Source of the DNA: a bacterium
Lineage (GTDB): Bacteria > UBA8248 > JACPRG01 > G963555815
DNA length: 64,000 nt
Assembly: GCA_965218795.1 (NCBI GenBank)
Contig: OZ244653.1
Location: 2,656,001 to 2,720,000, forward strand
Direction: 5' to 3'
Part shown: positions 25,675 through 49,676 of the stretch, piece after piece
Layout: each line of letters begins with the position of its first letter
How positions within the stretch are numbered: the first letter of the stretch is position 1
Made by a program: the position numbers and the translations under genes
The notes under the pieces: generated by a model
Told to the model about the DNA's origin: nothing
Databases searched by the model: none
The model's input: only the letters and a program-made list of their open reading frames with translations

Positions 25675-25675
25675 C

Positions 25676-28600: not shown

Positions 28601-28702
28601 GGGAGCGAGGCGGCCGGGAAAGAGACCGAGCCGGTCGTGAGGAACCGGGAGCCGGCTGCGCCGGACCGTGGGAAACGGGTCGAGATGGACTTGGGCCTTT
28701 GA
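25676..28702 (+). CDS. traI: MOBF relaxase-helicase (TraI/TrwC)
   Basis: FYYERDGYY tyrosines, DLTFSAPKSVS, HDASRNLDPQLHTH, FSTRR, QGYAGTGKTT, VVDEGS, HAFQGRT. Confidence 0.96.
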   Translation: MVVSIGAVASASQGVFYYERDGYYAKDDPAHREASAWAGKGAEDLGLSGPVDPDLFKAVLEGKVLDGTGRQLGRGGPDGALQHRPGRDLTFSAPKSVSLAALIGGDGRVVDAHDRAVKRSLAWIEGNAAETRLKDPETSRMVRAGDQKTVAATFRHDASRNLDPQLHTHAVLANMVQGGDGKWRTMANEALYRRQKLIGMVYRSELARELGKLGYGIEKTHADGRFEIAGVPRKVIEAFSTRRAEIEAAVAERGAEGTADNQRLAERAALMTRAHKREVDKAALRASWEKQTAGLGFDARTLAAEAAAREAGRDAARDSGRENAPARDVDPASADAVGSPAAIAETDPARREPATKEPAAEAAEWAVAHLAEREAVFSRADLLAAALAWMPGAVSVEAAEKAVGALEGQGRLHCAPALMGGDGMTTDKALTRERETIALMRGEQDRSPVVMRSWMASARLHKGPLTEGQKQAVKLILSSKDRVVGVQGYAGTGKTTMLRRANALAGKNGYRMMGLAPSASAVKTLATEAGIESETLQLFLARNAGIAEGRLTARSAREMRAAWRNTVLVVDEGSLASTVQARDLLRIANVLRLPRVVLVGDEKQLDAVDAGKPFAQLQRAGMKTAVMDEILRQRDPELKAAVEASLAGEIGRAFEKLGPNVAEVQADNIAGAVAARWLKLSPEARENTGVMAPSHELRREINGHIRERLARDGRIHGPAFTGERLVSHGYTNAEKSLAANYAEGDIVAFHRPYKTLGVDKGDERRVAGVDHKSHTVILEGGDGATVPWKPGRIAGRSGGVEVYRAEGIELRAGERIRWTRNDKGLGLVNSRTAEVASVKDGRVTFRLEDGRMLDMKAGDPQLRHLDHAWASTVHAFQGRTVDNVIAAMEANHPHLTTQKSFYVEISRARDRAELVTDDAARLREQLETATGERVSALEGIGEAARDERTKGMEADAKAGRTAARETEATRDTDRGGSEAAGKETEPVVRNREPAAPDRGKRVEMDLGL

Positions 28703-28992: not shown

Positions 28993-29053
28993 TTGTCAAC
29001 GAAATGGTTGACAAATATTCCGATGCGTGATTAGTTTCAACAGTATTGTTGAA
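28993..29053 (+). promoter_or_regulatory. Promoter flanked by two TCAAC-N6-GTTGA palindromes
   Basis: TTGTCAAC-N6-GTTGACAA at 28993-29014 (contains TTGACA 29008-29013); TTCAACA-N4-TGTTGAA at 29036-29053; AAGGA RBS before ATG 29067. Confidence 0.65.
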
Positions 29054-29066
29054 TAAAGGACAAGCC

Positions 29067-30314
29067 ATGAGATCATCCACCGGCCGCTGGGTGAGCGGCA
29101 ACGACTTTTTCGATCGCAAATCCGAACTGCGAATACTGGAAACACGGGTTCACGACCGCAACCACGTGTTGCTGACCGGACAGCGGCGCATGGGAAAGAC
29201 CAGCCTCGTCCGGGAGCTCGGGCGACGGCTCGAGGCCGAGGGCTGGATCTTCCTCTTCACGGATGTCGAGGGAGCGACCTGCCCGGAGGATGCGATCGCG
29301 GATATCGCGCAGGCCGTGCACCCGGTTCGCTCGATCGCGGCGCGTTTCGCCAGCGGGATGAAGCGGTGGTTGAACGACAACGTCGAGGAGGTCAGCGCAC
29401 TCGATTTTCGCGTGAAGATACGCGCCGGACTGAATGCCGGAAGCTGGCGGCGTCACGGGGAAAAGTTGCTCCGCGACTGCGCCGAGCATGACGAGCCGGT
29501 TCTCCTCGTCATCGACGAGCTTCCGATCTTCCTCAAGCGGATGCTTCGCCATGACGACGGCGACGCGCGACGGGTGGACGAGTTCCTGAGCTGGTTGCGC
29601 GGTGTTCTTCAGGCGCTCGGCGACGGCTCCCTAGTCCTCATCGTATCCGGCAGCATCGGGCTCGAACCCCTCGTGCGCAGGCTCGGCATACCCGACCGCA
29701 TCAACCATCTCTACTCCTATCGCCTGGGGCCGTGGAGCCGCGACGCCAGCGTCGCGTGTTTCACTCGTCTGGCGGAGAGTCATGGATTGCGGGTGGAGGA
29801 CGGTGTGGCGAACGCGGTGTACGAAGCGCTGGGCATCGGCATCCCCCATCACGTTCAGTCCTTCTTCGCGCGTCTGCGGGATTTCACCGCGATGCAGGGG
29901 CGGGACCGGGTAACGGTGGAGGATGTCGGCGAGGTCTATCGCAACGCGCTTCTGGGGCCTTCGGGACAGAACGACCTTGTTCACTATGAGACGCGCCTCA
30001 AGGAGGGTCTGGAAGACGAGAGCTACACCATTGCCATGGAGATCCTCGCCGAGGCGGCCACGCAGGAGACGTTCACGCCGGGTGCGAGGCGCTGTCTCGA
30101 ACGGTTGTATTCGGTTTTGGTGGACAATGCGCCCGGGTGCATCGCGGATGTGCTCGAAGTGCTGGTGCACGACGGCTATCTGGAAGCCGGCGAGGATGGC
30201 CATCGCTTCCCGTCGCGTTTGCTCAAGGACTGGTGGTCGGCGCGCTTCCGCGACCATCACACACCCCTCGAAAGCCGCCGTCTGGACGATGAATCGCCGG
30301 AGCGCATGGAATGA
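29067..30314 (+). CDS. AAA+/AP-type ATPase (STAND-like)
   Basis: FFDRKSEL, Walker A GQRRMGKTS, Walker B LLVIDE, GSIGL, GIPHHVQ. Confidence 0.85.
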   Translation: MRSSTGRWVSGNDFFDRKSELRILETRVHDRNHVLLTGQRRMGKTSLVRELGRRLEAEGWIFLFTDVEGATCPEDAIADIAQAVHPVRSIAARFASGMKRWLNDNVEEVSALDFRVKIRAGLNAGSWRRHGEKLLRDCAEHDEPVLLVIDELPIFLKRMLRHDDGDARRVDEFLSWLRGVLQALGDGSLVLIVSGSIGLEPLVRRLGIPDRINHLYSYRLGPWSRDASVACFTRLAESHGLRVEDGVANAVYEALGIGIPHHVQSFFARLRDFTAMQGRDRVTVEDVGEVYRNALLGPSGQNDLVHYETRLKEGLEDESYTIAMEILAEAATQETFTPGARRCLERLYSVLVDNAPGCIADVLEVLVHDGYLEAGEDGHRFPSRLLKDWWSARFRDHHTPLESRRLDDESPERME

Positions 30315-33300
30315 ACGAATTACGCAATCGGCCGATCCGCAAGTTCAATCCGGGGACATTCCAGTCCGACGATGAGGTGACCAAGCAGTTTGTGGTCCGG
30401 AACCGCGAGCTCGAGATCGTGCTTGAGGTCCTCCGCGGGAACATGGATTCGCCTTCGTGCCAGCACGTCCTGGTTGTCGCCCCTCGCGGCCGAGGGAAAA
30501 CCATGCTGCTGGCCCGCACCGCCGCGGAACTGCGCACTGACAACGAACTCTCCGGGCACCTGTTGCCGGTCCGGTTCATGGAAGAGAACCAGGAGATCTT
30601 CGATCTGGCCGACTTCTGGCTGGAGACGCTCTTCCACCTCGCCAGGGATAGCGCCGCGCATGATCCGGAGTTCGCGCGGGAGCTGCGGGAGACGCATGCC
30701 GCCCTGGCCGTCCGCTGGCGCGAGCAGGCCCTCGGAGAGCACGCCCGGACCGTGGTCCTGGAAGCGGCGGACCGGCTCGGCAAGAAGCTCGTGCTCATGG
30801 TCGAAAACCTTCAGGCCCTTTGTGAGAACGTGGATGAGGATTTCGGCTGGAATCTTCGCAGGGTGCTCCAGTCGGAACCCCAGATCATGCTGCTCGCCTC
30901 CGCTACCAGTCGTTTCGCGGGGCTGGACGATGCGAAGCAGCCGTTTTTCGAGCTGTTTCGAACTGTCGATCTGCAACCCCTGGCTACCGAAGAGTGCCGT
31001 CGCCTGTGGCGGGTCGTCAGCGGCGACGCGGTGAGCGGGCGCGAGATCAGACCGCTTCAGATCCTGACCGGCGGCAGCCCCCGCCTCCTGGTCATCGTCG
31101 CCGGGTTCGCGCGGCACCGGTCCCTGCGCCGGTTGATGGAAGAGCTGGTCACGCTGATCGACGAGCACACCGAGTATTTCCGTGGTCATCTGGAGGTCCT
31201 GCCCAAGAGCGAACGCCGAGTCTATCTCGCGGTGATCGACCTCTGGCAACCGTCGAGCACCAGCGAGATCGCGGCGCGGGCCCGCATGGGCGTTCGAACC
31301 GTCTCGACCATGATCGGACGACTGATCGACCGGGGGGCGGTGATCCTGGACCCGGCAAACAGTGGTAAGAGGCGGTTGTATGCCGCCACGGAACCTCTCT
31401 ACAGCATCTATTACAAGCTGCGGCGTGAACGCAACGAGGCGGCGGTGGTGCGAAACCTGATCCACTTTATGGCGGTGTTCTACAGCGAAGGCGAACTGGC
31501 CGGGATGTACGGCCAGATGATCGTGGAGGCGGCGGGATCGCCGGCCATTCGCGAGGGAATCGAGCGGGCACTGGTCGAACTACCACAAATCGGCAGCGCC
31601 TTGTTCGGCGCGGTATGGCAGGGCATCGGACAAATACCCAACCAGTCCGAAGCGGTCGACAAGAGAAGGGCCGAGCACTTCACCGAAACGATCACGAAGG
31701 CGTTCGACGAAAGAGATTTTGAGAGGGTCATCGAGATTGTGGACAAGGCTTCCACCTTCCCGAGCACAGAGTGGTCTGGAGTTCCGGAGTCGCTCATTGC
31801 TTGGGGGGGTACTCGGAAAGCGTTTGCTCTTGACGAATTGGGCGACACCAAAGCGGCAATTGCGACCTATGACGAGGTCATTGAACGCTTCGACGCCAGC
31901 GAGTCGCAACAGTGTCAGCTTCAGGTCGTGATCTCGGTGGTGTGTAAACGAGTGGTGCAAGAGGAAATCACTGAATCCCAAGCCGACATGATGATTTATG
32001 ACGAGATGATTGAGCGTCTAGGGGCCAATAGCGTTCCAAAGGACTTGCAAGTGAAGGTGGCCCAGGCATTGTTCAACGAGGCAGCTACGCGAAACCAACT
32101 CGGCGATACTGAGACGGCAATTGTGACCTACGACGAGGTGATCGGGCGTTTTGGCGCCAGCGAAGTGCAAGAGCTTGAGGTGCTGGTCGCCAGGGCATTG
32201 GTCGACAAGGGAATTACCCGCGAACAGCTTGGCGAATCCGGGGCAGCGATTGAGGGCTATGACGAGGTACTGGAACGCTTTGGCACCGACCGTGCGCCGG
32301 AACTTCAGGTGGAAGTCGCGCGGGCCTTGTTCAATAAGGGAGTTGCGCAAGGGCAGCTTGGCAATCCCGAGACGGCGATTGCGATCTACGACGAGGTGAT
32401 CGAGCGCTTTGGCACCGACCGTGCGCCGGAACTCCAGGTGGAAGTCGCGCGGGCCTTGTTCAATAAGGGAGTTGCGCAAAGGCAGCTTGGCAATCCCGAG
32501 ACGGCGATAGTGGCCTTCGATGAGGTGGTTGGGCGCTTTGGAGCCAGCGAAGAGCTAGCGCTCCAGATGCCAGTCGCCAGAGCGCTGTGCAACAAGGGAA
32601 CTACGCTAGAACAGCTCGGCAACTCCGAGGCGGCGATAGTGGCCTACGACGAGGCGGTCGGACGCTTTGGCAGCAGCGAAGCGCCAGAGCTCTGGGTGGA
32701 GGTTGCCCGTGTGCTGTTCAACAAGGGATATGCACAAGCGCAGCGCGGCGATTCCGAGGCGGCGATTACGGCCTATGACGCGGCGATCGAGCGTTTTGGA
32801 TCCAACGACACGCCAGACCTCCAGCTACCGGTTGCTATGGCGCTGTTCGGCAAGGGTGTGACACAAACCGAACTCGGTCTTGAGAAAGAAGCGTTGCGCA
32901 CATGCGAAGAACTTGAACGAAGGCTCGGCGCCATGACCGGCAATGCCAAGGTGGAGTTTGCGTGGCGAGCAATGTACGTGCGCGCAGTGGCACTGATGGC
33001 CCAGAAACAACATCGGGCCGCCATGGACGCGCTCCGCGCCGCGTATTCGGCGTTCCTACCCGGCAACGAGGTGACCATGCACGAGATGCTACGGCTTGTG
33101 CCGGAATTGATCGCAACCTGCGCACCGGAGCAGAAGATTATCGAGATCCTGTCGAGCGACAGCAAGAAATCCGACATGCTGGCACCGCTGATCGTCGCTC
33201 TGCGCCAGCGCGGTGGCGAGACGGTTCGGGCTCCTGCGGAAGTGCTTGAGGTGGCTGCGGATATCCGGAAACGTATCGAGGAAAAAGCGGCGAAGGGTGT

Positions 33301-33316
33301 TTCCACGGCTTCTTGA
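30311..33316 (+). CDS. STAND-like ATPase-wHTH-TPR protein
   Basis: APRGRGKTM, LVLMVEN, TGGSPR, MarR-like HTH (STSEIAARARMGVRTVSTMIGRLIDRGAV), about nine 43-aa TPR-like repeats; ATGA overlap with upstream gene. Confidence 0.85.
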   Translation: MNELRNRPIRKFNPGTFQSDDEVTKQFVVRNRELEIVLEVLRGNMDSPSCQHVLVVAPRGRGKTMLLARTAAELRTDNELSGHLLPVRFMEENQEIFDLADFWLETLFHLARDSAAHDPEFARELRETHAALAVRWREQALGEHARTVVLEAADRLGKKLVLMVENLQALCENVDEDFGWNLRRVLQSEPQIMLLASATSRFAGLDDAKQPFFELFRTVDLQPLATEECRRLWRVVSGDAVSGREIRPLQILTGGSPRLLVIVAGFARHRSLRRLMEELVTLIDEHTEYFRGHLEVLPKSERRVYLAVIDLWQPSSTSEIAARARMGVRTVSTMIGRLIDRGAVILDPANSGKRRLYAATEPLYSIYYKLRRERNEAAVVRNLIHFMAVFYSEGELAGMYGQMIVEAAGSPAIREGIERALVELPQIGSALFGAVWQGIGQIPNQSEAVDKRRAEHFTETITKAFDERDFERVIEIVDKASTFPSTEWSGVPESLIAWGGTRKAFALDELGDTKAAIATYDEVIERFDASESQQCQLQVVISVVCKRVVQEEITESQADMMIYDEMIERLGANSVPKDLQVKVAQALFNEAATRNQLGDTETAIVTYDEVIGRFGASEVQELEVLVARALVDKGITREQLGESGAAIEGYDEVLERFGTDRAPELQVEVARALFNKGVAQGQLGNPETAIAIYDEVIERFGTDRAPELQVEVARALFNKGVAQRQLGNPETAIVAFDEVVGRFGASEELALQMPVARALCNKGTTLEQLGNSEAAIVAYDEAVGRFGSSEAPELWVEVARVLFNKGYAQAQRGDSEAAITAYDAAIERFGSNDTPDLQLPVAMALFGKGVTQTELGLEKEALRTCEELERRLGAMTGNAKVEFAWRAMYVRAVALMAQKQHRAAMDALRAAYSAFLPGNEVTMHEMLRLVPELIATCAPEQKIIEILSSDSKKSDMLAPLIVALRQRGGETVRAPAEVLEVAADIRKRIEEKAAKGVSTAS
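32276..32509 (+). repeat. Near-identical 129-bp tandem duplication within the TPR array
   Basis: CGCTTTGGCACCGACCGTGCGCCGGAACT... at 32276 and 32405. Confidence 0.9.
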
Positions 33317-34140
33317 TCGCCACGGAAGACCTTGAGTTGACCCGCTTTGGGTGGACACTTAGATTCATCGAGCCGTTTTCATCGGCCGTGGAATCCTACT
33401 ATCATATTGATATTATTGGGAAATATACATTATTCCCAATCTCATTCGGAACCTGTCTTCTAGGGATTTTCTTTTCCAGCACAAAACCCTGTTTATGTCC
33501 AGGTACCGTATAGGCACCGTTTTATTTCCGAGCCGTGCGCATCCCTGCGCACGCCGGAACGAGCCTTCGTCGCGAGTGACGGTTTGGTCGGCGATCGGAA
33601 ATCGCGTGAGCAAGGCCCGCATCCAGCACAACTGTCAAGCGACACCTACCGCCGGTTCCTGTTCTGATTGCGGTTCATGCCTCGGCAGGCGGAATCGCCT
33701 CGACTTGACCCATGAATCGAATTTGCCGATCAAGCCACTCACCCTGGCCGCTTCTCGCGATCTCGGATAGCCGCAAGCACCTCGTCGACGTCAATGCCCC
33801 GCAAAAGACTACGTCCTTCCTCGAACGCAGGGTCAATCGCCCGCCGCATCAAAATCCTCCCATCGACCTCTCTGCCCTCCACCAAGAGACCTCCCAAACA
33901 GAGCCATCACCGTCGCCTGACGCACTCAAGTGTCTTTCCACTTCAGGCGGCGGCACACGGAGATCCTCGTTTCCTGCCCTTACCGCTCGCCGCGCTGCCT
34001 TCCGAAAAGACCCCACCTCCACGACATGCTCCCTGACCCTCCAGGTCTCCACATCCTGCTTCGTGACGACCTTTGCGATGTCCTCCATAGTTGCCGACTT
34101 GTAAGGTACTCGTGAGACGCAGAGCTGTAGCAGGGGTACC

Positions 34141-34173
34141 ACTTCCGCTGGTACAAAAAAGCCGTGCAGGCCA
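34141..34173. mobile_element. Orphan IS3/IS407-like terminal inverted repeat
   Basis: ACTTCCGCTGGTACAAAAAAGCCGTGCAGGCCA resembles the IS end ACTTCTGCTGGTACAAAAAACGCCGGTCAGGTCA at 57899-57932. Confidence 0.55.
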
Positions 34174-34412
34174 ATCGGCGAACACCTCGCGGTAAATAGT
34201 TCCGATTCGCGCTGCCTCGTCATCGGTCAGCGCGGCGAATTCCTTTTCCCGGCCTCGGCAGGTTAGTTTACCGCCATTGCGGTGCAGGAACCGGAACAGA
34301 AGGTCGGACAACCTCTCCGGCATGTCGACCACCAGGTTCAGCTCCCTGCGAAACGCATCGTAGCGCTTCAGGAAGGAGACTTCTCCCGGCAGGTCGTGCT
34401 CGACGGTCCGTT
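34174..34412 (-). pseudogene. C-terminal fragment of a Fic-family protein
   Basis: RTVEHDLPGEVSFLKRYDAFRR..VVDMPERLSDLLFRFLHRNGGKL..REKEFAALTDDE. Confidence 0.65.
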
Positions 34413-34517
34413 CTCATTATCATGAGCGCCTCGTGCATACCGGGACAAACTCCTCGGAATCCCTTGTTGGACCTCAGAGTGACCAGCGCCCGATCCAGAA
34501 CGTCCCGCGTAAAAATA

Positions 34518-34575
34518 TGTCAGTTCTTAAGTTTATGTATTGACAATGTCAGCATATAGAGATATTATACTGACA
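34518..34575 (+). promoter_or_regulatory. Consensus-like sigma70 promoter overlapped by two TGTCA-N18/19-TGACA inverted repeats
   Basis: TTGACA(34540-34545)-N17-TATTAT(34563-34568); IRs at 34518-34545 and 34547-34575; AGGAGG RBS before ATG 34588. Confidence 0.7.
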
Positions 34576-34587
34576 CAGGAGGTTGCG

Positions 34588-35163
34588 ATGACGGATGGAC
34601 CGTTCAGAAACGCTACGCTGAGCAGCCGATGGAAGCAGTACGGCAAAGATCTCGTGAGCGACGCTGCAAGCTCGGAAGAGCGCGCCGCCCAGGCGTGCCA
34701 CAGCATGCTCGGCGACGTAGACATGAAAGCGTTTGGTTCGCTCTTGAACGTACTCAAAGCGCATGCTCAGAGGCCCCAGATGGATATGGACCCGATTTCC
34801 TCAGTCGAGGCCATTTTCGACGGCCACGCGAGACCGATTCTAACTGAAACCCTCCAGAAGCACCTAATCGCCAACCTCCGAGATCGGGTTCCTGGCGAGA
34901 AAGCACTGGATCAGGCGCTATCGAGAACTGTTACGGACTGGATCGACATCACCAAGAACCGACTCGATGAGCAGTGCATCCGCGCTCGTGACCTCGGCGA
35001 AATGAGCGATGAGAACTGTCGCAAAGGAATCGAGCGCAACCACGAAGCCTTTGACGCCATAAGACCAAATGAACTCTGCGACACCCTGGTCTCCGGCAAC
35101 GGGCGCGCCTTCAAGCAAGTCACTAGAATGAAAGTGGGCGTGGATGAGGGCCCCGACGAATGA
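34588..35163 (+). CDS. Hypothetical helical protein, first gene of the QueC-like operon
   Basis: Strong RBS, starts MTDGPFRN; stop overlaps next ATG (ATGA). Confidence 0.75.
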   Translation: MTDGPFRNATLSSRWKQYGKDLVSDAASSEERAAQACHSMLGDVDMKAFGSLLNVLKAHAQRPQMDMDPISSVEAIFDGHARPILTETLQKHLIANLRDRVPGEKALDQALSRTVTDWIDITKNRLDEQCIRARDLGEMSDENCRKGIERNHEAFDAIRPNELCDTLVSGNGRAFKQVTRMKVGVDEGPDE

Positions 35164-36548
35164 GCACCGAGCTGAATGGTTCACAAACGAAAGCCAAGCG
35201 TCTGCACGTCATTGAGAAAGGCCAAATGCCCGACTGTACCTGCCCGAAAGATGCGGTGACGGCTATGGTTAGCCGAGAAATCACCTTCAACGCGACTGTT
35301 CTTGATACCTTCGATGTAAAGGGTTTTCAGCCCGTGCACTACGACCTGTTGGTGTTGTGCGCGGCCATGGAGTTTGCCGACCGCCGCTGGAAGCGCCCAC
35401 GGGGCTGGAATCGCAACCTGCACGTTACGGTTCCGGTCATTGACCTTGAGACCTGGCAAAATCGCGAAGTGCTGGAGAGCTTCCATAACGTGCAACGTCA
35501 CCTTACGTGTGATGATTGGAAATGGACTTTCGTGCAGGCGAAAAACCCATCTCCGATTGGCGAGCGCCAAGGCGCTCTAAACTTCCCGAACACTAAGACC
35601 TTCGCTATCGCCTATAGTGATGGATTGGACTCGCGTGCAGTCGCTGCTTTGAGTGGGGATAGGGATGAAGCCCTTTGCATCCGGCTCACAAAATTTCGCC
35701 AACGTCGGAAGACCGGCGACAGTTACTTTTCTCAGATCCCATTCAAAGTTCATGGACACCCGAGCAACGAGAGTAGTTTCCGGTCTCGTGGGTTTCAGTT
35801 TGCGGCAGTGACGGCGATTGCCGCTCACTTGTCGAATGTAACCCGGATCACGGTTCCGGAGAGCGGTCAGAGCGCTCTAGGCCCAGTGCTGCTGCCTCTT
35901 CACAATATCTACCCTGATTACCGCAACTACCCGACGTTCTTCCGGAAGATGGAGCGGTTCATCAAGGCGCTGTTGCGCCATCAGGTCCACTACGAACAAC
36001 CACGCCTATGGTACACGAAAGGCCAGACGATACAGGCATTTCTGGACCTTCCCGGTAAGCGCGAACACGACCTCACCAGCACGCGATCCTGCTGGCAAAA
36101 CCGCCGAATCGTGAACAGCGGGGGCAGCAAGAAGCATTGCGGCCTATGTGCAGCCTGCCTGCTCAGACGCCAGAGTCTGCACGCAGCCGCCGTCACTGAG
36201 ATGCCAGCCACCTACGTGGTTTCAGATCTGAGTACTTCGGATGTGACCAAGGCCTTATCCATCATCCCGCAGACTGCCGACCGGGACATTATGGTCGAGT
36301 ATGGCAGCGTCGGTGCGCGGCATTTGCAACATCTCGCCGATATGGCAATTCTACCAGATGACGATCTCCGTGGGCATGTATGGGAAATCGCGGCAGCAAC
36401 CGGTGCGACCTTTCAAGAAACCCTGAAGAACCTGAGAACTCTACTGGCGAAGCATGCGGAAGAATGGCGGGCATTTTTATCTGCCCAAGGAGAACAAAGC
36501 TTCTTGAAGAGCTGGATGGATGGAGGACGTTATGGCCGATCTGAATGA
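35160..36548 (+). CDS. QueC-like (7-cyano-7-deazaguanine synthase superfamily) PP-loop enzyme, QatC-like architecture
   Basis: DLLVLCAAMEFADR..R..W.R.L.V.VPV N-terminal domain, PP-loop AYSDGLDS, RSRGF, VPESG, TKGQ, TRSCW..HCGLCAACLLRR Zn site. Confidence 0.85.
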   Translation: MSTELNGSQTKAKRLHVIEKGQMPDCTCPKDAVTAMVSREITFNATVLDTFDVKGFQPVHYDLLVLCAAMEFADRRWKRPRGWNRNLHVTVPVIDLETWQNREVLESFHNVQRHLTCDDWKWTFVQAKNPSPIGERQGALNFPNTKTFAIAYSDGLDSRAVAALSGDRDEALCIRLTKFRQRRKTGDSYFSQIPFKVHGHPSNESSFRSRGFQFAAVTAIAAHLSNVTRITVPESGQSALGPVLLPLHNIYPDYRNYPTFFRKMERFIKALLRHQVHYEQPRLWYTKGQTIQAFLDLPGKREHDLTSTRSCWQNRRIVNSGGSKKHCGLCAACLLRRQSLHAAAVTEMPATYVVSDLSTSDVTKALSIIPQTADRDIMVEYGSVGARHLQHLADMAILPDDDLRGHVWEIAAATGATFQETLKNLRTLLAKHAEEWRAFLSAQGEQSFLKSWMDGGRYGRSE

Positions 36549-37722
36549 GTTGAGTGCACAGGAAATCGGCCGACGCCTTCGGCTGGCGCGCGAGAACGCG
36601 GGCATACGACAGGATGATGCAGCCCAGTTCATTGACATGTCACGCCCGACCCTGGTCTCGATTGAGAAAGGGGCGCGCAGTGTACGTATTCAGGAGCTCC
36701 AAGTGCTGGCCCGCCACTACGGCGTATCGGTGAACGCCCTCCTCCGCCGCGAGGCCGTTCATACGGATCTCGTGCCCCGCTTCCGGAGACTGCGGGAAAC
36801 GGAGGACAAGCATAAGGCTGAAGCCATTCAGCTTTTCAATGACCTGATCAAGGCGGACGTCGAGTTGGAAAATATGCTCGGCATCGAGCGGCGCCGGAAC
36901 TATCCGCCGGACCGCGGCATCAATGAGGGCAACGTTCTGACTTTGGCCGAGAATCATGCCCAAGAGTTGCGCGACTGGCTGGGTCTCGGTCCAGGACCGA
37001 TTGCCGACATATTCTCGATCATAGAGCTGGGTCTCGGCATTCGTCTTTATCAGCGCCGCCTATCATCCAAATCCAGAGTGGCGGGTTTGTTCACTTACGA
37101 TGATACCGTTGGCACCTGCATTCTTCTTAACGCCAACCATCCGCTGCCTCGGCGTATCCAGTCGGCCGCGCACGAACTCGGCCACTTCTACGGGACCCGC
37201 AACACTCCGGAGATACTTGAAGAGGACGAGAGATTTTTGTCTCGCGACGAGCGCTACGCCAACGCCTTTGGTCGCGCATTGTTGACACCCGCCGAGAGCT
37301 TCAAAGAAAGCTTCCGGCAATTGAAAGAGATCACTGGCAAGACCACCCGACGGCTGATCATTTTACTTTCCCAGCAATACAATATCTCCCGCCAGGCATG
37401 CGGACTACGTCTGGAGGAGCTTGGCATTACGAAAAAGGGGACGTGGGATTGGTTTGAGAAGAACGGCAGCATTACGGAGGATCACGTGCGGGAGGTGCTT
37501 GGCGAGATGGCCAATCGACCTGACCCTGCCAAGACCGACGCCGACCGTCCGATTTCCCACCGGATGAGCCTGATGGTCCATGCCGCCTGGAAACGTGACC
37601 TCATGTCGGAAGGCCAACTGACGGAACTGCTCAAGGTTGGTCGCGTCGAACTTCGGAATATCATCGACCAGATCGAGCTTGAGGATAGCGAGACGGATGA
37701 CCTACTCAAGCTCCCTGGCTGA
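36532..37722 (+). CDS. XRE-HTH fused to ImmA/IrrE (COG2856) Zn metallopeptidase
   Basis: IGRRLRLARENAGIRQDDAA..SRPTLVSIEKGAR; SAAHELGHF HExxH; ERYANAFGRALLTP. Confidence 0.92.
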   Translation: MADLNELSAQEIGRRLRLARENAGIRQDDAAQFIDMSRPTLVSIEKGARSVRIQELQVLARHYGVSVNALLRREAVHTDLVPRFRRLRETEDKHKAEAIQLFNDLIKADVELENMLGIERRRNYPPDRGINEGNVLTLAENHAQELRDWLGLGPGPIADIFSIIELGLGIRLYQRRLSSKSRVAGLFTYDDTVGTCILLNANHPLPRRIQSAAHELGHFYGTRNTPEILEEDERFLSRDERYANAFGRALLTPAESFKESFRQLKEITGKTTRRLIILLSQQYNISRQACGLRLEELGITKKGTWDWFEKNGSITEDHVREVLGEMANRPDPAKTDADRPISHRMSLMVHAAWKRDLMSEGQLTELLKVGRVELRNIIDQIELEDSETDDLLKLPG

Positions 37723-38401
37723 TGACCTTAGACCGCTGGTTCTCGATACGAGTGTTCTGATCAACCTCTACGCCTGCAGCTACGGCGAGCGCATTCTAAC
37801 GGCCATTCCCAACGACATCATCGTTCCGCAGGTCGTAGCCGCGGAGCTCGAACACGAAACGAGTCGCAAGAAGGGCGAACACGGTTTTTTGCATGGCCTA
37901 ATAGCCGGAGGAAAGGTGACGCTCGGCGAAATGTCCGACGAGGAGAATGCACTCTTCGCCAATCTCACTTCCGGCCCCCAATCCCTCGACGATGGCGAAG
38001 CCGCGACGATTGCGATTGGGGCCAAACGACAGCTCCTTCCGCTCATAGACGATCGAAAGGGGCGAGCACAGGCCATTCAAGTCCTGCGTGGGCGAGAACC
38101 GGGCTGGTCCATCGACCTGTTTCGCCATGCCCCTGTAACTTCTGCCTTGGGGAACACTGCTGCTATCGAAGCTCTGTATCAGGCGCTTCTCAATGGGAGA
38201 ATGCGCGTCCCCGTCGAAAGCACCGAGTACATTATTGATCTCCTCGGCAGCGAGCGGGCAAGAGACTGTACCTGCCTCCCGGATTATCGGAAACTCTTCG
38301 GGCAATCCATGAACCGACATTCGGTAGAGAAACAAGAAGAACACCAGATAATTTATGGATCTAAATCAGGCACAGGCCGGGGGGAAGGTCGGTCTGTTTA
38401 G
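37697..38401 (+). CDS. PIN-domain protein (putative RNase toxin)
   Basis: LVLDTSVLINL, VAAEL, LDDGEAATIA, LIDDRKG; overlaps upstream gene. Confidence 0.85.
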   Translation: MTYSSSLADDLRPLVLDTSVLINLYACSYGERILTAIPNDIIVPQVVAAELEHETSRKKGEHGFLHGLIAGGKVTLGEMSDEENALFANLTSGPQSLDDGEAATIAIGAKRQLLPLIDDRKGRAQAIQVLRGREPGWSIDLFRHAPVTSALGNTAAIEALYQALLNGRMRVPVESTEYIIDLLGSERARDCTCLPDYRKLFGQSMNRHSVEKQEEHQIIYGSKSGTGRGEGRSV

Positions 38402-38629
38402 TCTAAGCAGCTATTCTTGGGTTGTCACACAGATGGCGATTGGCTTGCATTTGGTTGAGTTCATGGCCAGTGGTGTGATTATTTGCCCGTGTGTAAGGAG
38501 TCCAGCTAAGCTGCGGGAGAATACTCTACGCCGATACGAGCATAGAGTGAACCCGCTAAAGGGAGCCATACGACTGATGAACCCGACCCAGGAAATCAAC
38601 ATCGTTAAAGTCTTGCAACGGACACTTGA

Positions 38630-38965
38630 CGAGGTGCTCCGGCTTGCGGCGTGCAACAAAGCGGAAATCTTTGAAACCCTGATTGAGGCCGGAGCGAATG
38701 TGAAGGGCGTCCTATTCTCGCGACGAATCCGGCGGCCATTGAAGCCCTGAGCAACGCAGGGGACAAGGTGGACGCGACGGACCACGGCGGAAACACCCCC
38801 CTGCACTATGCGGCGAAGAATGGACGAACCTCCGCCACCATCGAAGCCCTGCTCAAGGCCGGGGCGGATGTGGACGCGAGACAAAACGGCGGAAAGACCC
38901 CGCTTCACTTCGCGCGAGATTCCAAAGTCAAAGAGATTCTGAAAGCGCACAGGGCGCGCGAATGA
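38630..38965 (+). pseudogene. Fragmented ankyrin-repeat gene
   Basis: LAACNKAEIFETLIEAGANV, then in another frame GNTPLHYAAKNG..LLKAGADVDA..GKTPLHFA. Confidence 0.7.
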
Positions 38966-39726
38966 CCGGAGGGCGGACCATGACCCGATGCTTAATGCTC
39001 ACGGCGGTGCTGCTCTTGAGTGCATGGCCCCTGCTGGCAGGGGCGGGCGAATTACACGAAGCGGCGAAAGCCGGCAACGTGGAACGCATCGAAGTCTTGC
39101 TCAAAGCCGGGGCGGACGTGAACGAGAGAGAGGATAGGTTCGGATATACCCCACTTCATTGGGCGGCGGCCAAGGGGCATATGGAAGCGGTCGAGATCTT
39201 GCTCAAGGCCGGGGCGAAGGTGAACGCAAGAAAGCGCAGGCAATGGAAAGCATCGACCACCAGACTTAAGATGAGGGCCATACTATTCGATGCGGTAAAC
39301 GACTATTCCACCCCCCTGCACCTTGCGGCGGGAGCCGGACACGCGGCCGCCATCAAGGTCCTGCTCCAAACCGGCGGACACCCCAACGTGAAGGACAGGA
39401 ACGGGGACACCCCACTTCACGACGCGGCGCGCATGGGACGCACGGCGGCCGTCAAAGTCCTGCTCCGGGGCGGTGCGAACATAGACGGGAGGGCCAAGAA
39501 CGGAGAAACCCCACTTCACAATGCAGTATTCAAATTCAATGTTAAGCCCGAAGACATCGAAGTCATCAAGACCCTGCTCAAAGGCGGAGCCGACCCTAAC
39601 GCGAAAGCAAAGAATGGGGACACTCCACTTCACAAAGTACGGGTAAGGACGAACTCAACCGAGGGAAGCATCAAGCCGTTCCTGGAAGTGATCGAGATAT
39701 TGAAGGCGCACGGAGCCCGCGAGTGA
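38962..39726 (+). CDS. Secreted ankyrin-repeat protein
   Basis: Signal peptide (LLAGA-GE); 5-6 TPLH.AA..G..LL.AGA.VN repeats. Confidence 0.92.
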   Translation: MTGGRTMTRCLMLTAVLLLSAWPLLAGAGELHEAAKAGNVERIEVLLKAGADVNEREDRFGYTPLHWAAAKGHMEAVEILLKAGAKVNARKRRQWKASTTRLKMRAILFDAVNDYSTPLHLAAGAGHAAAIKVLLQTGGHPNVKDRNGDTPLHDAARMGRTAAVKVLLRGGANIDGRAKNGETPLHNAVFKFNVKPEDIEVIKTLLKGGADPNAKAKNGDTPLHKVRVRTNSTEGSIKPFLEVIEILKAHGARE

Positions 39727-39865
39727 TGAGAGAACCGTGCCGCCCCTTCGATGAATGGATTGCGGCCCTCCCCGACCTTCGGCCAAAGGGACGGGAGCGC
39801 GTCAATCCCTGCCCGTTGTGCGGCGGCAATGATATAACTTTAATGTTATCAATAAGTTGCTGGCC

Positions 39866-48314: not shown

Positions 48315-49676
48315 CCTGGACGCTCTCATATTTGTCAAGTATTAGTTGAGGCGGTAAGGACCCGGTAGATTTCGCGGGCCACGTAGCGCTTCAGACAACG
48401 CATCACCTCTCGTTTGGACAGTCCTTCCTGGGTACGCCGCGCAACGTAGGCTCGGGTTTGCTGGTCGGTCCGCATCCGGCAGATGACGACCATGTGCAGG
48501 GCTGAGTTGGCTTGGCGGTTCCCGCCGCGGTTGAGGCGGTGGCGTTGCGTCTTCCCGCTTGAGGCTGGGATTGGGCAGGCGCCACACATCATCGCGAAGC
48601 TCGCCTCGGAGCGCAGCCGGTCCGAATTCTCCCCCGCGGCGACCATCAGTTCGCCAGCGTTCTCGATTCCCACGCCTTCGAGCTGGAGCAGATTGGGCGC
48701 GAGCTCCTCGACCAGCGGACCGATGAATCGATCGAGGTCGGCGATCTCGTCGTTCAGGTCCAGGATCCTGCGGGCGAGGGACTTCAGCGAGAGCCTGGTC
48801 GCGACCACCGGGTCTCGGTATCCCACGGTGTCCGGCCTCCAAGCCGCACAAGTGCGCAGGCGCTGCATCCGGGTGAGATGGCGGACTTGGTCGCGCACCT
48901 CCTCGGGTGCAGCGACGATCGTGTTGTGAAGCTGCTGCAGTGCCGCACGACGGCACTTCATCGCCGTCTTTCGAGTCGTGCGCAGCACCCGCAAGGCTTC
49001 CACCGCACCGCAACGGTCTTTGGCCACCTGCACGCGACGTCTGGTTCGAGCCGCCTCAGCCACCGCGACCGCATCGAGCACATCGTCTTTGCCTTTGGCT
49101 CTTCGACCCGCTCGGTCGGGACCGGTCACCTCGAGCACGGGCACGCCCGACAGCGCCAGGTGGCGGGTAATGCCGGCCCCGTAAGTCCCCGTGGATTCGA
49201 CCCCTACGCGAAGCAACTCCCCGTGAGACCGGAACCAGCGAAGCATCGCCCGGTAGCCGGCCCGGGTGGTGGAGAACAATTCGGTGCCGAGTACTGCTCC
49301 ATCAAGGTCCACAATGGCAGCGGTGTGCAGGTCCTGGTGGGTATCGACGCCTCCGATGATCTCATTGCGCTCCGGTATCCTGTTCGTCATGTCCGCTCTC
49401 CGATCTATGATGGGTGAAGGGATCGGAACCGAACTCAGCCGATGTCGGACACGACAGGGAAGGGACGCCTTGGGCCAGGCTCTCATCAGGTCACGATGTC
49501 GGTCGAGGTCGGAACCTCAACCGGTTGCCCCTGGGTGGCCGACAAGTCAAGGGAACGACACCACGGTCAACCAGAGTGTGGGTCAAGCCACCCTGGGGCG
49601 GCCGGCCCTACAAGCCTAAATGCATTACTCGCGGTACGGGTCAGACCACCTCAGGTAACCGGCCCTCACATACTCC
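48315..49676 (-). mobile_element. IS110-family element, apparently intact, GG core
   Basis: Removing it and one GG restores IS3 orfB GAC AGG GGC TCG CAG; about 285-bp non-coding left end. Confidence 0.88.
48335..49390 (-). CDS. IS110 DEDD recombinase
   Basis: GGVDTH, GVESTG, KDDVLDA, PASSGK, HRLNRGGNRQANSALH, RCLKRYVARE. Confidence 0.93.
   Translation of the reverse strand: MTNRIPERNEIIGGVDTHQDLHTAAIVDLDGAVLGTELFSTTRAGYRAMLRWFRSHGELLRVGVESTGTYGAGITRHLALSGVPVLEVTGPDRAGRRAKGKDDVLDAVAVAEAARTRRRVQVAKDRCGAVEALRVLRTTRKTAMKCRRAALQQLHNTIVAAPEEVRDQVRHLTRMQRLRTCAAWRPDTVGYRDPVVATRLSLKSLARRILDLNDEIADLDRFIGPLVEELAPNLLQLEGVGIENAGELMVAAGENSDRLRSEASFAMMCGACPIPASSGKTQRHRLNRGGNRQANSALHMVVICRMRTDQQTRAYVARRTQEGLSKREVMRCLKRYVAREIYRVLTASTNT

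What the first reader, a model, noticed from the sequence alone, without database searches (positions are those of the whole stretch)
34518..38401. Four-gene operon (unknown protein, QueC-like ligase, XRE-ImmA/IrrE, PIN): candidate undescribed defence or toxin system
Seen: four overlapping, translationally coupled genes with lower GC than the backbone, behind one strong promoter, in conjugative cargo. The QueC-like protein has the long QatC-type N-terminal domain, a variant PP-loop (SDGLDS rather than SGGLDS) and the Cys4 Zn site. No queD, queE, folE or tgt is in the window. Known: QueC-like proteins act in the QatABCD and type IV CBASS anti-phage systems, where they are reported to conjugate a deazaguanine base to a partner protein's N-terminus. 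XRE-COG2856 plus PIN pairs are a separately predicted toxin-antitoxin class. Inference: here the KAP ATPase/TatD or CD-NTase partners are replaced by a metallopeptidase-regulator and a PIN RNase. The small first protein (N-terminus TDGPF after Met removal, not Gly) sits where QatB does and may be the modified substrate gating the toxin. I do not recognise this combination as a named system.
Basis: partly seen in the sequence, partly recalled or inferred. Interest (0 to 1): 0.88.

Follow-up and report, generated by a model that had tools for sequence, protein, structure and literature searches.

The report
QatC-like enzyme fused to peptidase-PIN toxin cassette
A fixed four-gene cassette on a conjugative element joins a QatC-type protein-modifying enzyme and its small partner to a repressor-peptidase and a PIN nuclease, a combination not found described in the papers searched, which could help show what QatC-type protein modification does.

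Summary
Window 34518-38401 carries one near-consensus sigma-70 promoter flanked by TGTCAG boxes and four overlapping + strand genes. They encode a 191-aa helical protein (ORF1), a 462-aa QatC-family PP-loop enzyme (QatCL), a 400-aa XRE-HTH/M78 peptidase (RmrA/ImmA-like) and a 234-aa VapC-like PIN protein.

The four genes form one fixed module:
- All four lie in the same order in 79 of 80 related loci from several phyla.
- 25 of 26 plasmids with the PIN also carry QatCL.
- The same 5 of 51 genomes of the host's class hold both.
- A deeper clade (33-39% identity) keeps the same architecture in the two loci inspected.

ORF1 shows no detectable homology to QatB. It is predicted to bind QatCL (ipSAE 0.86; best control 0.01). 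Its only invariant part is the N-terminal M-[T/S]-D-G-P-F-x-N peptide, where QatB has MGTS.

Best reading: an undescribed hybrid of a QatBC-like modification core and a Rosmer-like HTH-peptidase/PIN pair, acting as a defence or toxin module. Deazaguanine chemistry is doubtful, because the host shows no QueE or FolE-I. My literature searches found no description of the system. Nothing here is tested experimentally. Novelty: new variant of a known kind.

The parts
34518..34523 (+). Operator-like box 1, TGTCAG, upstream of the -35 element
   Evidence: Read. Two TGTCAG boxes 26-32 nt apart occur in 63 of 78 distinct upstream regions. About 0 are expected in shuffles (rows shown).
34540..34568 (+). 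Sigma-70-type promoter: -35 TTGACA (34540-34545), 17-nt spacer, -10 TATTAT (34563-34568)
   Evidence: 11 of 12 consensus matches. TTGAC[AT]-n-TGTCAG occurs in 62 of 78 distinct upstream regions.
34547..34552 (+). Operator-like box 2, TGTCAG, between the -35 and -10 elements
   Evidence: The last TGTCAG starts 40-42 nt before the ATG in 63 of 78 regions.
34570..34575 (+). Inverted half-site CTGACA just after the -10 element; it forms a palindrome with box 2
   Evidence: C[TC]GACA is present in 33 of 78 upstream regions, so it is less conserved than boxes 1 and 2.
34588..35163 (+). ORF1: 191-aa all-helical protein in the QatB position. N-terminal peptide M-T-D-G-P-F-R-N is invariant across the family; the C-terminal tail GVDEGPDE is disordered.
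   Evidence: No Pfam, PADLOC or NCBIfam match. Most homologues are 191 aa. AF2 model: pLDDT 85, 9 helices. N-terminal conservation. Predicted complex with the next protein.
35160..36548 (+). QatC-like PP-loop enzyme (QueC family), 462 aa, with QatC-type N- and C-terminal extensions, PP-loop SDGLDS and a Cys4 Zn site
   Evidence: NCBIfam QatC 107 bits (cut-off 280). PADLOC QatC E 3.6e-28. Pfam QueC 35.9 bits. The only PDB sequence hits are QatC chains 9vlk_A and 9zee_B. Motif comparison.
36520..37722 (+). XRE-type HTH fused to an M78 (ImmA/IrrE) metallopeptidase plus a conserved C-terminal domain, 400 aa (alternative start 36532). Proposed repressor and antitoxin.
   Evidence: Pfam HTH_31, HTH_3 and Peptidase_M78. 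PADLOC RmrA E 1.4e-17 and capP E 3.4e-13. NCBIfam spr1629 repressor/antitoxin E 4e-11. H218, E219, H222 and E244 are invariant in 78 sequences. It is the most conserved of the four proteins.
37697..38401 (+). VapC-like PIN nuclease domain (about residues 14-135) plus a C-terminal helical domain, 234 aa. Proposed toxin or effector.
   Evidence: Pfam PIN 17.1 bits, below the 23.6 cut-off. PADLOC PDC-S70 E 3.5e-10. D17, E50, D99, E101 and D118 are at least 98% conserved. AF2 pLDDT 89. Top Foldseek hits are VapC toxins: probability 1.00, target TM 0.6-0.7, E 1e-3 to 1e-2.

Best explanation
The cassette is a single, horizontally mobile conflict module for defence or toxin control. It welds a QatBC-like core (ORF1 plus the QatC-like enzyme) to a Rosmer-like pair (HTH-M78 peptidase plus PIN nuclease).

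Proposed working, with the basis of each step:
1. The XRE-M78 protein binds the TGTCAG boxes around the promoter and keeps the operon low. This is inferred from conserved operators and a conserved HTH.
2. ORF1 sits on the QatC-like enzyme. Its invariant N-terminal M-[T/S]-D-G-P-F peptide lies at the enzyme, which uses ATP to modify that peptide. The complex is predicted. The ATP-site residues are shown to be retained. The chemistry is unknown.
3. The XRE-M78 protein also holds the PIN nuclease in check, as an RmrA-type antitoxin does. This is inferred from gene order and family.
4. A trigger such as phage infection or DNA damage changes the modification state of ORF1, switches on the peptidase, or both. 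The repressor/antitoxin is cut and the PIN nuclease arrests the cell. This is inference, and the order of steps 2 and 4 is open.

The modifying group need not be 7-deazaguanine.
For: Fixed module:
- All four genes lie in the same order in 79 of 80 loci. These are the best 80 of 307 relatives found in 185,579 species genomes.
- The same order holds in two loci of a clade only 33-39% identical.
- 25 plasmid records carry QatCL at E<=1e-30 and 26 carry the PIN; 25 are shared.
- The same 5 of 51 genomes of the host's class hold both, and 46 hold neither.
- Pairwise-distance matrices of the four proteins correlate at r 0.82-0.97, and 0 of 999 permutations reach the observed value (72 loci).
- Gene overlaps and a single promoter.

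Enzyme:
- It aligns to QatC from the N-terminal extension to the Zn site.
- Retained residues are S153/D157/S158, R210/F214, D62 and four Cys. These match residues the QatC papers name as ATP-binding, catalytic or Zn-binding (PMC13279940 section 5; PMC13329287 section 7).

Partner:
- Complex prediction gave ipSAE 0.86, 0.88 and 0.86; the best of 3 controls was 0.01. Runs share at least 74% of contacts and partner pLDDT is at least 81. The tool's mark was reached by 58 of 80 solved complexes and 2 of 110 mismatched pairs.
- Contacts fall on the QatCL loop 242-253 and C-terminal helices 376-412 and 451-459. PMC13279940 describes these same two elements as the QatB interface.
- ORF1 residues 4-9 and 12 are among the confident contacts.
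- The ORF1 N-terminus is the only invariant stretch in 31 diverse homologues.
- 78 of 78 extracted locus homologues start M[TS]DGP.
- 104 of 118 full-length cluster representatives have M-x-D-G-P within their first 45 residues.

Regulator and toxin:
- HExxH and the PIN acidic residues are invariant.
- VapC-like fold.
- RmrA, capP and spr1629 matches.
- RmrA-type HTH-ImmA antitoxins with PIN-like partners are described in PMC10440598 and PMC5499597 (passages read).

Operators: 63 of 78 distinct upstream regions hold two TGTCAG boxes 26-32 nt apart; about 0 are expected in shuffles.
Against: - No experiment exists. Toxicity, neutralisation, DNA binding, modification and phage phenotype are all untested.
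- ORF1 has no detectable sequence relation to QatB (hhalign probability 0.2-0.4%). No QatB row appeared in either fold search.
- Residue 2 is Thr or Ser, and in distant relatives also Val, Ile, Pro, Asn, Ala or His. It is not the Gly that QatB and CdnD need. G2D mutants of both lose function (PMC13279940, PMC13639016), so the known N-terminal chemistry may not carry over.
- The host genome (98.9% complete, one contig) gave no QueE match with two models that ring in 9 of 14 control genomes, and no FolE-I match.
- The host's QueC-like and QueD-like proteins score below NCBIfam cut-offs: 79 against 150, and 75 against 89.
- One of 5 other cassette-bearing genomes also lacks a QueE match.
- QatCL scores 107 bits against a QatC cut-off of 280, and its PP-loop lacks the first Gly.
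- The complex score may reflect likeness to solved QatBC structures (the tool's own caveat).
- The PIN is below Pfam's cut-off.
- Flanking genes vary. Only a minority are Abi, TA or mobile-element genes, and no enrichment test was done.
Confidence: 0.55

Rival explanations
1. Regulator-only model. The XRE-M78 protein is purely a CapH/CapP-like damage-sensing transcription switch, fused into one chain, that derepresses the operon. ORF1-QatCL and the PIN then act as a three-gene Qat-like system in which the PIN replaces the TatD nuclease QatD as effector. There is no toxin-antitoxin neutralisation.
For: - PADLOC capP E 3.4e-13 and capH E 8.7e-6 match the two halves of the protein.
- Operator boxes around the promoter are conserved.
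- Canonical Qat carries a nuclease gene directly after qatC.
- The QatBC core alone can defend, and QatA and QatD modulate range (PMC13279940, section 5 read).
Against: - The regulator lies inside the operon, directly before the PIN gene and overlapping it by 26 nt. That is the usual antitoxin-toxin layout.
- Its best family matches are RmrA and a repressor/antitoxin family.
- It keeps a strongly conserved extra C-terminal domain of about 100 aa with no DNA-binding or peptidase assignment.
- It is the most conserved of the four proteins, at 77% mean pairwise identity. That fits several simultaneous partners.
Confidence: 0.2
2. Two mechanistically independent modules share one transcript: a minimal QatBC-like defence pair, and a Rosmer-like TA pair that only stabilises or regulates the locus.
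For: - QatB and QatC alone suffice against some phages (PMC13279940, section 5).
- HTH-DUF955 plus PIN sets exist as units of their own in other PIN families (PMC5499597 passages; PMC10440598 passages).
- TA genes are said to cluster with and stabilise defence genes (PMC5499597 passage).
Against: - Where I looked, this PIN subfamily was almost never found without QatCL. 25 of 26 plasmid records carry both, as do 5 of 5 positive genomes among 51.
- No partner swapping is visible across 72 loci.
- The same four genes persist down to 33-39% QatCL identity.
- Independent modules would be expected to separate or swap over that distance.
Confidence: 0.12
3. The cassette is not an anti-phage system. 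It is an addiction or maintenance module, or a stress-response module, of plasmids and integrative conjugative elements.
For: - 14 of 25 QatCL-bearing plasmid records are typed conjugative and 6 mobilizable.
- Here it lies next to F-type transfer genes.
- ArdC, integrase and conjugal-transfer genes occur in some flanks.
Against: - Its closest characterised relatives, QatABCD and RosmerTA, are both phage-defence systems (PMC13279940; 10.1101/2022.05.11.491447 passages).
- AbiE genes, Shedu and other defence genes lie beside some copies.
- Many copies lie on large chromosomal contigs.
- Maintenance and defence are not mutually exclusive.
Confidence: 0.1
4. A peptide-maturation (RiPP-like) pathway: ORF1 as precursor, the PP-loop enzyme as modifier and the M78 peptidase as processing protease.
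For: - ORF1 has conserved terminal peptides at both ends.
- A PP-loop enzyme and a metallopeptidase share the operon.
- Divergent QueC homologues that attach amino acids to CDG occur in natural-product pathways (10.64898/2026.04.15.718813, passage).
Against: - ORF1 is a confidently folded 191-aa helical protein that packs against the enzyme over a large interface.
- There is no transporter or other tailoring gene in the cassette.
- The peptidase is fused to a DNA-binding HTH and followed by a PIN nuclease.
Confidence: 0.02

Closest known systems
QatABCD anti-phage system (QatB-QatC core)
   Same: - The enzyme is of the QatC branch, with the QatC-specific N- and C-terminal extensions, PP-loop, RxRxxxF, P(x)4TK and CGxCxxC..RR Zn motifs (motif list from PMC13329287 section 7).
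- A small all-helical partner is encoded just upstream with an overlapping stop/start. It has a strictly conserved N-terminal peptide.
- It is predicted to bind through the same enzyme elements as QatB (PMC13279940 section 5).
   Different: - There is no QatA (KAP NTPase) and no QatD (TatD). An HTH-M78 protein and a PIN protein stand in their place.
- The partner is 191 aa, against 253-324 aa for QatB. It has a tail of about 12 residues instead of 30-90, starts M[T/S]DGP instead of MGTS, and shows no detectable homology.
- The PP-loop reads S[D/N/E/K]GLDS.
- The enzyme keeps a Y-x-D motif that aligns with QueC's Y-P-D register, where QatC has S/T-rich T-R-T-T. The residue-level register is uncertain.
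- It scores below the NCBIfam QatC cut-off.
RosmerTA and the HTH-DUF955(ImmA/IrrE)-PIN three-component toxin-antitoxin class
   Same: - An HTH fused to an M78/ImmA peptidase with intact HExxH, best matched by PADLOC RmrA models.
- It is followed by an overlapping PIN-like gene with an intact acidic site.
- This layout is described in PMC10440598 and PMC5499597 (passages).
   Different: - Where examined, the pair is not a free-standing two-gene unit. It is always preceded by ORF1 and QatCL.
- The PIN is not one of the PIN-like groups named for this class in PMC5499597 (COG2405, DUF4411, PIN_14, PIN_20, PIN_26), as far as Pfam shows. Only weak PIN and PIN_4 hits were found.
Type IV CBASS Cap9-CdnD deazaguanylation, with CapH/CapP regulators
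   Same: - A QueC-family enzyme is paired with a protein whose N-terminal tail enters the active site.
- An HTH and an M78 peptidase are present as regulators; capP and capH models match the third protein.
- The Cap9/CdnD facts come from PMC13279940, PMC13376578 and PMC13329287 as read. The CapH/CapP mechanism is recalled, not read here.
   Different: - The cassette has no CD-NTase, no Cap10/TGT-like protein and no cyclic-nucleotide effector.
- The enzyme is of the long QatC type, not the minimal Cap9 of about 185 aa.
- The acceptor peptide lacks Gly2.
- The host shows no QueE.
VapBC-type PIN toxin-antitoxin pairs and PADLOC candidate PDC-S70
   Same: - VapC-like fold and four acidic residues.
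- PDC-S70 models match residues 34-148 of the 254-aa ORF that was scanned (TTG start at 37637), which is about residues 14-128 of the 234-aa PIN protein, at E 3.5e-10.
- PDC-S70 is a single-gene PIN candidate without experimental validation (PMC12988326 passages).
   Different: - It has an extra C-terminal helical domain of about 100 aa.
- Its partner is a 400-aa HTH-peptidase, not a small VapB.
- It is embedded in a four-gene unit.

Membership tests
QatABCD | QatC equivalog: NCBIfam NF041925 at or above its 280-bit cut-off | tested here: not met
   107.2 bits. The protein is nevertheless of the QatC branch: PADLOC QatC E 3.6e-28, and the only PDB sequence hits are QatC chains.
QatABCD | QatB partner with a conserved N-terminal MGTS (Gly2) motif and a long disordered tail | tested here: not met
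   ORF1 starts MTDGPF. hhalign against QatB gives probability 0.2-0.4%. The four QatB sequences fetched start MGTS.
QatABCD | QatB-like fold of the partner | tested here: inconclusive
   No QatB row appeared in Foldseek pdb or VIA wide. The fold libraries may predate release of the QatBC entries, and I could not fold QatB myself.
QatABCD | Stable 1:1 complex of the partner with the QueC-family enzyme, with the N-terminal tail at the active site | tested here: inconclusive
   Prediction only: ipSAE 0.86 against a best control of 0.01, with ORF1 residues 4-9 and 12 in contact. It may reflect likeness to solved QatBC.
QatABCD | QatA KAP-family NTPase and QatD TatD nuclease in the operon | tested here: not met
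   The cassette holds only ORF1, QatCL, XRE-M78 and PIN, here and in 79 of 80 loci. Canonical loci for comparison.
RosmerTA (RmrT/RmrA) | RmrA: antitoxin with an ImmA/M78 Zn-peptidase domain, often with an N-terminal HTH | tested here: met
   Pfam Peptidase_M78 56 bits and HTH_31 44.5 bits. 16 PADLOC RmrA models match, best E 1.4e-17. HExxH is invariant.
RosmerTA (RmrT/RmrA) | Adjacent toxin neutralised by RmrA; a two-gene unit that defends against phage | not testable with these tools
   Adjacency and overlap are shown. Toxicity, neutralisation and defence need experiments. The unit here has four genes, not two.
PIN domain (VapC-like) | PIN fold with four conserved acidic residues | tested here: met
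   D17, E50, D99 (with E101) and D118 are at least 98% conserved in 78 sequences. Foldseek top hits are VapC toxins: probability 1.00, TMt 0.6-0.7. The Pfam PIN score of 17.1 is below the 23.6 cut-off.
Canonical QueC (preQ0 synthase) | TIGR00364 equivalog score | tested here: not met
   24.8 bits against a cut-off of 150.3, matching only residues 249-336. The N- and C-terminal extensions are absent from QueC.
Type IV CBASS | CD-NTase substrate and Cap10 (TGT-like) beside the QueC-family protein | tested here: not met
   No such gene lies within the cassette. The flanks were not searched for them specifically, but neither appears among the 25 commonest Pfam families of 150 flanking ORFs.

The most novel reading that the evidence does not exclude
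The QatC-like enzyme installs a protein modification on the invariant N-terminal M-[T/S]-D-G-P peptide that differs from Gly2 N-terminal deazaguanylation. It would use another acceptor (Thr/Ser2 amine or the Asp3 side chain), another acyl donor, or both, because this host appears unable to make CDG. This mark would be the switch that tells an HTH-metallopeptidase to release a PIN toxin. That would be a post-translational-modification relay inside a toxin-antitoxin-type defence module.
Probability: 0.22. Interest if true: 0.9.

Novelty: new variant of a known kind. Interest (0 to 1): 0.72.

Why it matters
Four papers from 2026 solved QatBC structures, and all left open which reaction QatC catalyses and how a modified QatB stops a phage (PMC13279940 discussion; PMC13639016 section 9).

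This cassette is a natural variant in which the same kind of enzyme-partner pair is hard-wired to two parts with easy read-outs: a repressor-peptidase with a defined operator, and a PIN toxin. That makes the downstream consequence of QatC-type modification directly testable.

Its acceptor peptide (M-[T/S]-D-G-P rather than M-G-T-S) and its presence in a host without detectable QueE test whether QueC-family protein modification is limited to deazaguanine on an N-terminal glycine.

It would also extend Rosmer-type HTH-peptidase antitoxins to a four-component design.

The family is sizeable:
- 307 relatives in species-representative genomes in a motif-limited scan.
- 355 clusters at 50% identity for ORF1.
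- Alpha- and Betaproteobacteria, Melainabacteria, Geobacter, Gemmatimonas and Bryobacterales by record titles.

Tried and rejected
- ORF1 against QatB by sequence gave nothing: profile against one QatB, and a broader ORF1 profile against four QatB.
- An ORF1 profile against PDB sequences gave only chance-level rows, best E 0.058.
- ORF1 fold searches were uninformative. Foldseek pdb had no row at E<=0.001. In VIA wide the best Z was 8.5 (BopN) with other helical bundles, within the noise the tool states for helical models. QatB was not seen, and the libraries may not yet hold it.
- ESM Atlas for ORF1 returned only unnamed or helical-bundle clusters, with recognition below the tool's mark.
XRE-M78+PIN and the ORF1 C-tail with XRE-M78 could not be modelled.
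- The look-up of sequencing runs listed no RNA holder.
- PADLOC on eight neighbours in the window gave only weak or partial hits: mad8 E 6.5e-6, a C-terminal fragment of PDC-S24, and ankyrin models. I do not claim a defence island here.
- Flank survey: 204 flanking ORFs came from 56 loci. There was no constant neighbour and no control set, so no enrichment claim is made.
- The register of QatC T278/T280 against QatCL is ambiguous. HMMER, MAFFT and hhalign place the Y251-x-D253-Y-R-N motif one to three residues apart.
- Chance adjacency of two modules is rejected on the co-occurrence counts.
- Supplementary Table S2 of PMC13329287 (neighbourhoods of the QatC cluster) could not be read. It may already list XRE or PIN neighbours.

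Full report
**What is there**

On the + strand, ORF listing and direct reading of the sequence give four genes:
- ORF1, 34588-35163, 191 aa.
- A QatC-like protein (QatCL), 35160-36548, 462 aa.
- An XRE-HTH/M78 peptidase protein, 36520-37722, 400 aa. Position 36532 is an alternative start that fits the 396-aa length of most homologues.
- A PIN protein, 37697-38401, 234 aa.

Successive genes overlap by 4, 29 (or 17) and 26 nt. Upstream lie TTGACA, a 17-nt spacer and TATTAT, which match the consensus at 11 of 12 positions. An AGGAGG Shine-Dalgarno sequence sits six bases before the ORF1 ATG.

GC content is 0.54-0.60 in the cassette. It is 0.60-0.70 in the transfer-gene region and 0.63-0.76 beyond 42 kb, and the whole 33-42 kb stretch is low.

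Upstream at 8.9-28.7 kb lie TrbI, TraC, TraU, TraN, TraH, TraG, a TraD-type coupling protein and a TrwC relaxase, followed by two AAA_16/STAND-like NTPases. The window is part of a single 5.17-Mb contig, so the element is integrated in a chromosome.

**Family assignments**

- ORF1 matches nothing in Pfam, PADLOC or NCBIfam.
- QatCL matches NCBIfam QatC at 107 bits against a cut-off of 280. It matches PADLOC QatC at E 3.6e-28, and Pfam QueC over residues 250-342 only.
- The third protein matches Peptidase_M78 and HTH_31/HTH_3. It matches 16 PADLOC RmrA models (best E 1.4e-17), capP (E 3.4e-13), capH (E 8.7e-6), and the NCBIfam spr1629 repressor/antitoxin family (E 4e-11).
- The fourth protein has weak PIN hits (17.1 bits, cut-off 23.6) and matches the PADLOC PDC-S70 candidate at E 3.5e-10.

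PDC-S70 is a single-gene PIN candidate that has not been validated (PMC12988326, passages).

**The four genes are one module**

A motif-seeded scan of 185,579 species-representative genomes found 307 relatives of QatCL, and the best 80 loci were kept.

tblastn with the four window proteins found all four, in the same order and spacing, in 79 of 80 loci. The exception, L052, has only 696 nt upstream, and its QatCL match starts at residue 55.

Identity to the window proteins ranges as follows:

| Protein | Identity range |
|---|---|
| XRE-M78 | 63-97% |
| QatCL | 50-94% |
| PIN | 40-91% |
| ORF1 | 23-83% |

Record titles place these loci in Alpha- and Betaproteobacteria, Melainabacteria/Cyanobacteria, Geobacter, Gemmatimonas and Bryobacterales.

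In the plasmid collection, 25 records carry QatCL at E<=1e-30 and 26 carry the PIN. Twenty-five are shared, and one Microvirga record has the PIN without such a QatCL hit.

Annotated plasmids show the same four genes with unrelated flanks:
- insertion sequences;
- a radical-SAM / 3'-5' exonuclease / AAA ATPase / HD-domain gene cluster with a Shedu SduA-domain gene about 5 kb beyond it;
- VapBC pairs with an integrase.

A deeper clade, 33-39% identical in QatCL, keeps the four-gene layout in the two loci inspected, from Bosea and Labrenzia plasmids.

Among the 51 genomes of the host's class, QatCL and PIN are found in the same five genomes and in no others. One of these five copies is decayed.

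Pairwise-distance matrices of the four proteins over 72 distinct loci correlate at r 0.82-0.97, and 0 of 999 permutations reach the observed values. For this test I used the loci where all four proteins were near full length. Linked genes share history, so this shows co-inheritance without partner swapping. It does not show physical interaction.

**The enzyme**

By sequence, only QatC chains in the PDB match QatCL (9vlk_A at E 2e-11, or 8e-17 with a profile; and 9zee_B). The match runs from residue about 59 to 360.

A MAFFT alignment with four canonical QatC sequences from annotated qatABCD plasmid loci and the family alignment show these features retained:
- D62, the counterpart of the QatC Asp that PMC13329287 calls catalytic.
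- The D..R..WxR and LTGDxWxF motifs of the N-terminal extension.
- S153, G155, D157 and S158 of the PP-loop.
- R210 and F214, the counterparts of the adenine-binding R233 and F237 of P. aeruginosa QatC (PMC13279940, section 5).
- ESG and P(x)4TK.
- Four invariant Cys.

QatCL differs from QatC in two ways:
- The PP-loop reads S[D/N/E/K]G[L/M]DS.
- Where QatC has S-T-R-T-T-H-P, this clade has an invariant Y251-x-D253-Y-R-N-[H/Y]-P.

The QatC stretch includes the two Thr residues that replace the nucleobase-binding Tyr and Asp of QueC and Cap9 (PMC13279940). A profile alignment to the host's own QueC-family protein puts Y251 and D253 in register with its F-P-D, which is the QueC Y-P-D position. 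The different aligners disagree by one to three residues, so this needs a structure.

**The partner**

ORF1 homologues are almost all 191 aa. The AF2 model is confident (pLDDT 85). It has nine helices, about 12 non-helical N-terminal residues and a disordered tail at 172-191.

No relation to QatB could be shown. hhalign probability is 0.2-0.4%, and no QatB row appeared in either fold search, which is inconclusive.

The terminal peptides are the most conserved feature:
- All 78 ORF1 sequences extracted from the loci start M[T/S]DGP.
- In 31 diverse members, down to 23% identity, the only invariant columns are M1, D3, G4, P5, F6 and N8.
- In the intermediate clade the protein is no longer detectable by tblastn, yet it starts MSDGPH.
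- A profile search of 1.84 billion cluster representatives found 355 relatives at E<=0.001. Among the 149 newly returned proteins of the best 150 rows, 118 are of full length, and 104 of those hold M-x-D-G-P within the first 45 residues.
- Residue 2 is mostly Thr or Ser, but can be Val, Ile, Pro, Asn, Ala or His.
- The extreme C-terminus also carries a recurring G-[L/V]-D-[D/E]-G-[P/V] motif.

QatB proteins start MGTS (PMC13279940; PMC13639016). Their Gly2 is needed for function, and an NDG-modified GTSKAY peptide was reported (PMC13639016, section 9).

**Predicted complex**

Complex prediction with my own alignments gave ipSAE 0.86, 0.88 and 0.86, and the best of three controls was 0.01. The runs share at least 74% of contacts and partner pLDDT is at least 81. 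The tool's mark was reached by 58 of 80 solved complexes and 2 of 110 mismatched pairs.

Confident contacts on QatCL are residues 79-84, 110-119, 242, 246-253, 312, 330-332, 362-412 and 451-459. On ORF1 they are residues 4-9, 12, 43-45, 78-99 and 120-152.

The loop between the core helices and the C-terminal extension are the two elements that hold QatB in the crystal structures (PMC13279940, section 5). The pass may partly reflect that likeness. It supports binding but does not show it.

**Regulator and toxin**

In 78 distinct sequences each, H218-E219-x-x-H222 and E244 of the peptidase are at least 98% conserved. So are D17, E50, D99/E101 and D118 of the PIN.

The PIN model (pLDDT 89) has a PIN core plus a helical C-terminal domain. 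Its best Foldseek rows are VapC toxins, with probability 1.00, target TM 0.6-0.7 and E 1e-3 to 1e-2.

HTH-ImmA antitoxins (RmrA) paired with varied toxins, including PIN-like ones, are described for RosmerTA and related sets (PMC10440598 passages; 10.1101/2022.05.11.491447 passages). A three-component PIN + HTH + DUF955 class was predicted in PMC5499597 (passages).

**Operators**

In 78 distinct upstream regions:
- 76 hold TGTCAG.
- 63 hold two copies 26-32 nt apart.
- 62 hold TTGAC[AT]-n-TGTCAG.

Shuffles give about 2 regions with one copy and about 0 with two. In 63 regions the second box starts 40-42 nt before the ATG.

In the window the boxes are at 34518-34523 and 34547-34552, with an inverted CTGACA at 34570-34575. 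This fits autorepression by the very conserved HTH. Binding itself is not shown.

**Is deazaguanine available?**

Whole-genome searches of the host (98.9% complete) found the following:
- A TGT at 502 bits.
- A QueC-family protein and a PTPS/QueD-like protein. Both are below NCBIfam equivalog cut-offs (79 against 150, and 75 against 89), and the latter lies beside a pteridine reductase.
- No FolE-I.
- No QueE with two models that ring in 9 of 14 control genomes.

Of five other cassette-bearing genomes, four have a QueE-like match and one has none. FolE2 was not searched.

So the CDG supply that Cap9 uses, and that is proposed for QatC, is not evident in this host. This counts against simple transfer of the deazaguanylation mechanism.

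**Context**

The flanks differ between loci. Among the 150 kept, AbiEii occurs in 6, AbiEi in up to 4, ArdC in 3 and phage integrase in 2, and no family recurs widely.

I therefore claim mobility and frequent company of Abi, TA and mobile-element genes. I do not claim enrichment.

**Literature**

My searches for QatC, QueC, deazaguanylation, QueC-like with PIN or defence, QueC with ImmA/PIN/XRE/toxin-antitoxin, and PDC-S70 or QueC homologue found no description of this cassette.

PMC13329287 (sections 7 and 8 read) reports that only about 34% of its QatC cluster sits with qatA and qatD, and it does not discuss the rest. Its Supplementary Table S2, which I could not read, may bear on this.

**Verdict**

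The cassette is a real, widespread and rigidly conserved four-gene unit. It joins a QatBC-like enzyme-partner core with a Rosmer-like HTH-peptidase/PIN pair under a conserved operator-bearing promoter.

It fails the membership tests for QatABCD: no QatA, QatB or QatD, and a sub-threshold QatC score. It is also not a free-standing RosmerTA. It most likely works like both: an ATP-dependent modification of a partner's N-terminal peptide, coupled to a protease-controlled nuclease toxin.

The chemistry, the order of events and the biological role are inferred, not shown.

Noticed in passing
window 29046-33316 (+): Two adjacent AAA_16/STAND-like NTPase genes lie between the relaxase and the cassette: one of 422 aa and one of 1001 aa with many TPR repeats. 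PADLOC gives only a weak mad8 hit for the first. They might be an Avs-like or other NTPase-based conflict system.
   Followed up: partly
window 33316-34540, incl. ORF 33943-34332 (-): A 1.2-kb stretch without a long gene. The 129-aa minus-strand ORF matches only the last ~50 positions of PADLOC PDC-S24 (E 1e-8), which suggests the remnant of a truncated gene just upstream of the cassette.
   Followed up: no
window 38355-39726 (+): An ankyrin-repeat protein (254 aa, hydrophobic N-terminus, PADLOC PDC-M72A E 1e-28) is preceded by short ORFs that also read as ankyrin fragments. These may be a broken duplicate.
   Followed up: no
window 39857-40717 (+): An M28-family peptidase ORF whose Pfam match covers only profile positions 12-104 of 193. 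It may be truncated.
   Followed up: no
window 8889-28702 (+) and 48335-49486 (-): An F-type transfer gene set (TrbI, TraC, TraU, TraN, TraH, TraG, coupling protein, TrwC relaxase) lies inside a 5.17-Mb chromosome contig, so this is an integrative conjugative element. An IS110-family transposase lies downstream.
   Followed up: partly
host genome G000 (L084, L087, L088): The host has a TGT but no detectable QueE or FolE-I, and only sub-threshold QueC- and QueD-like proteins. The QueD-like gene sits beside a pteridine reductase. This suggests queuine/preQ salvage rather than de novo synthesis.
   Followed up: partly
L010 and L011 (one Allorhizobium chromosome); L001 (Mesorhizobium huakuii plasmid); G028: One chromosome carries two identical copies of the cassette. 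One plasmid copy has the QatC-like gene split into two ORFs. One genome of the host's class keeps only the last 55 codons of QatCL and a PIN gene with an internal stop. So copies both duplicate and decay.
   Followed up: partly
host class: The host's class holds only 51 species genomes in the collection. The cassette occurs in 2 of its 15 genera, while its closest relatives elsewhere are mostly from Alphaproteobacteria. This points to horizontal acquisition.
   Followed up: no
ORF1 family C-terminus (window 35140-35160 and homologues): The disordered C-terminal tail ends in a recurring G-[L/V]-D-[D/E]-G-[P/V]-x-L motif that resembles the N-terminal D-G-P motif. It lies outside the predicted QatCL interface, so it may serve another partner.
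   Followed up: no
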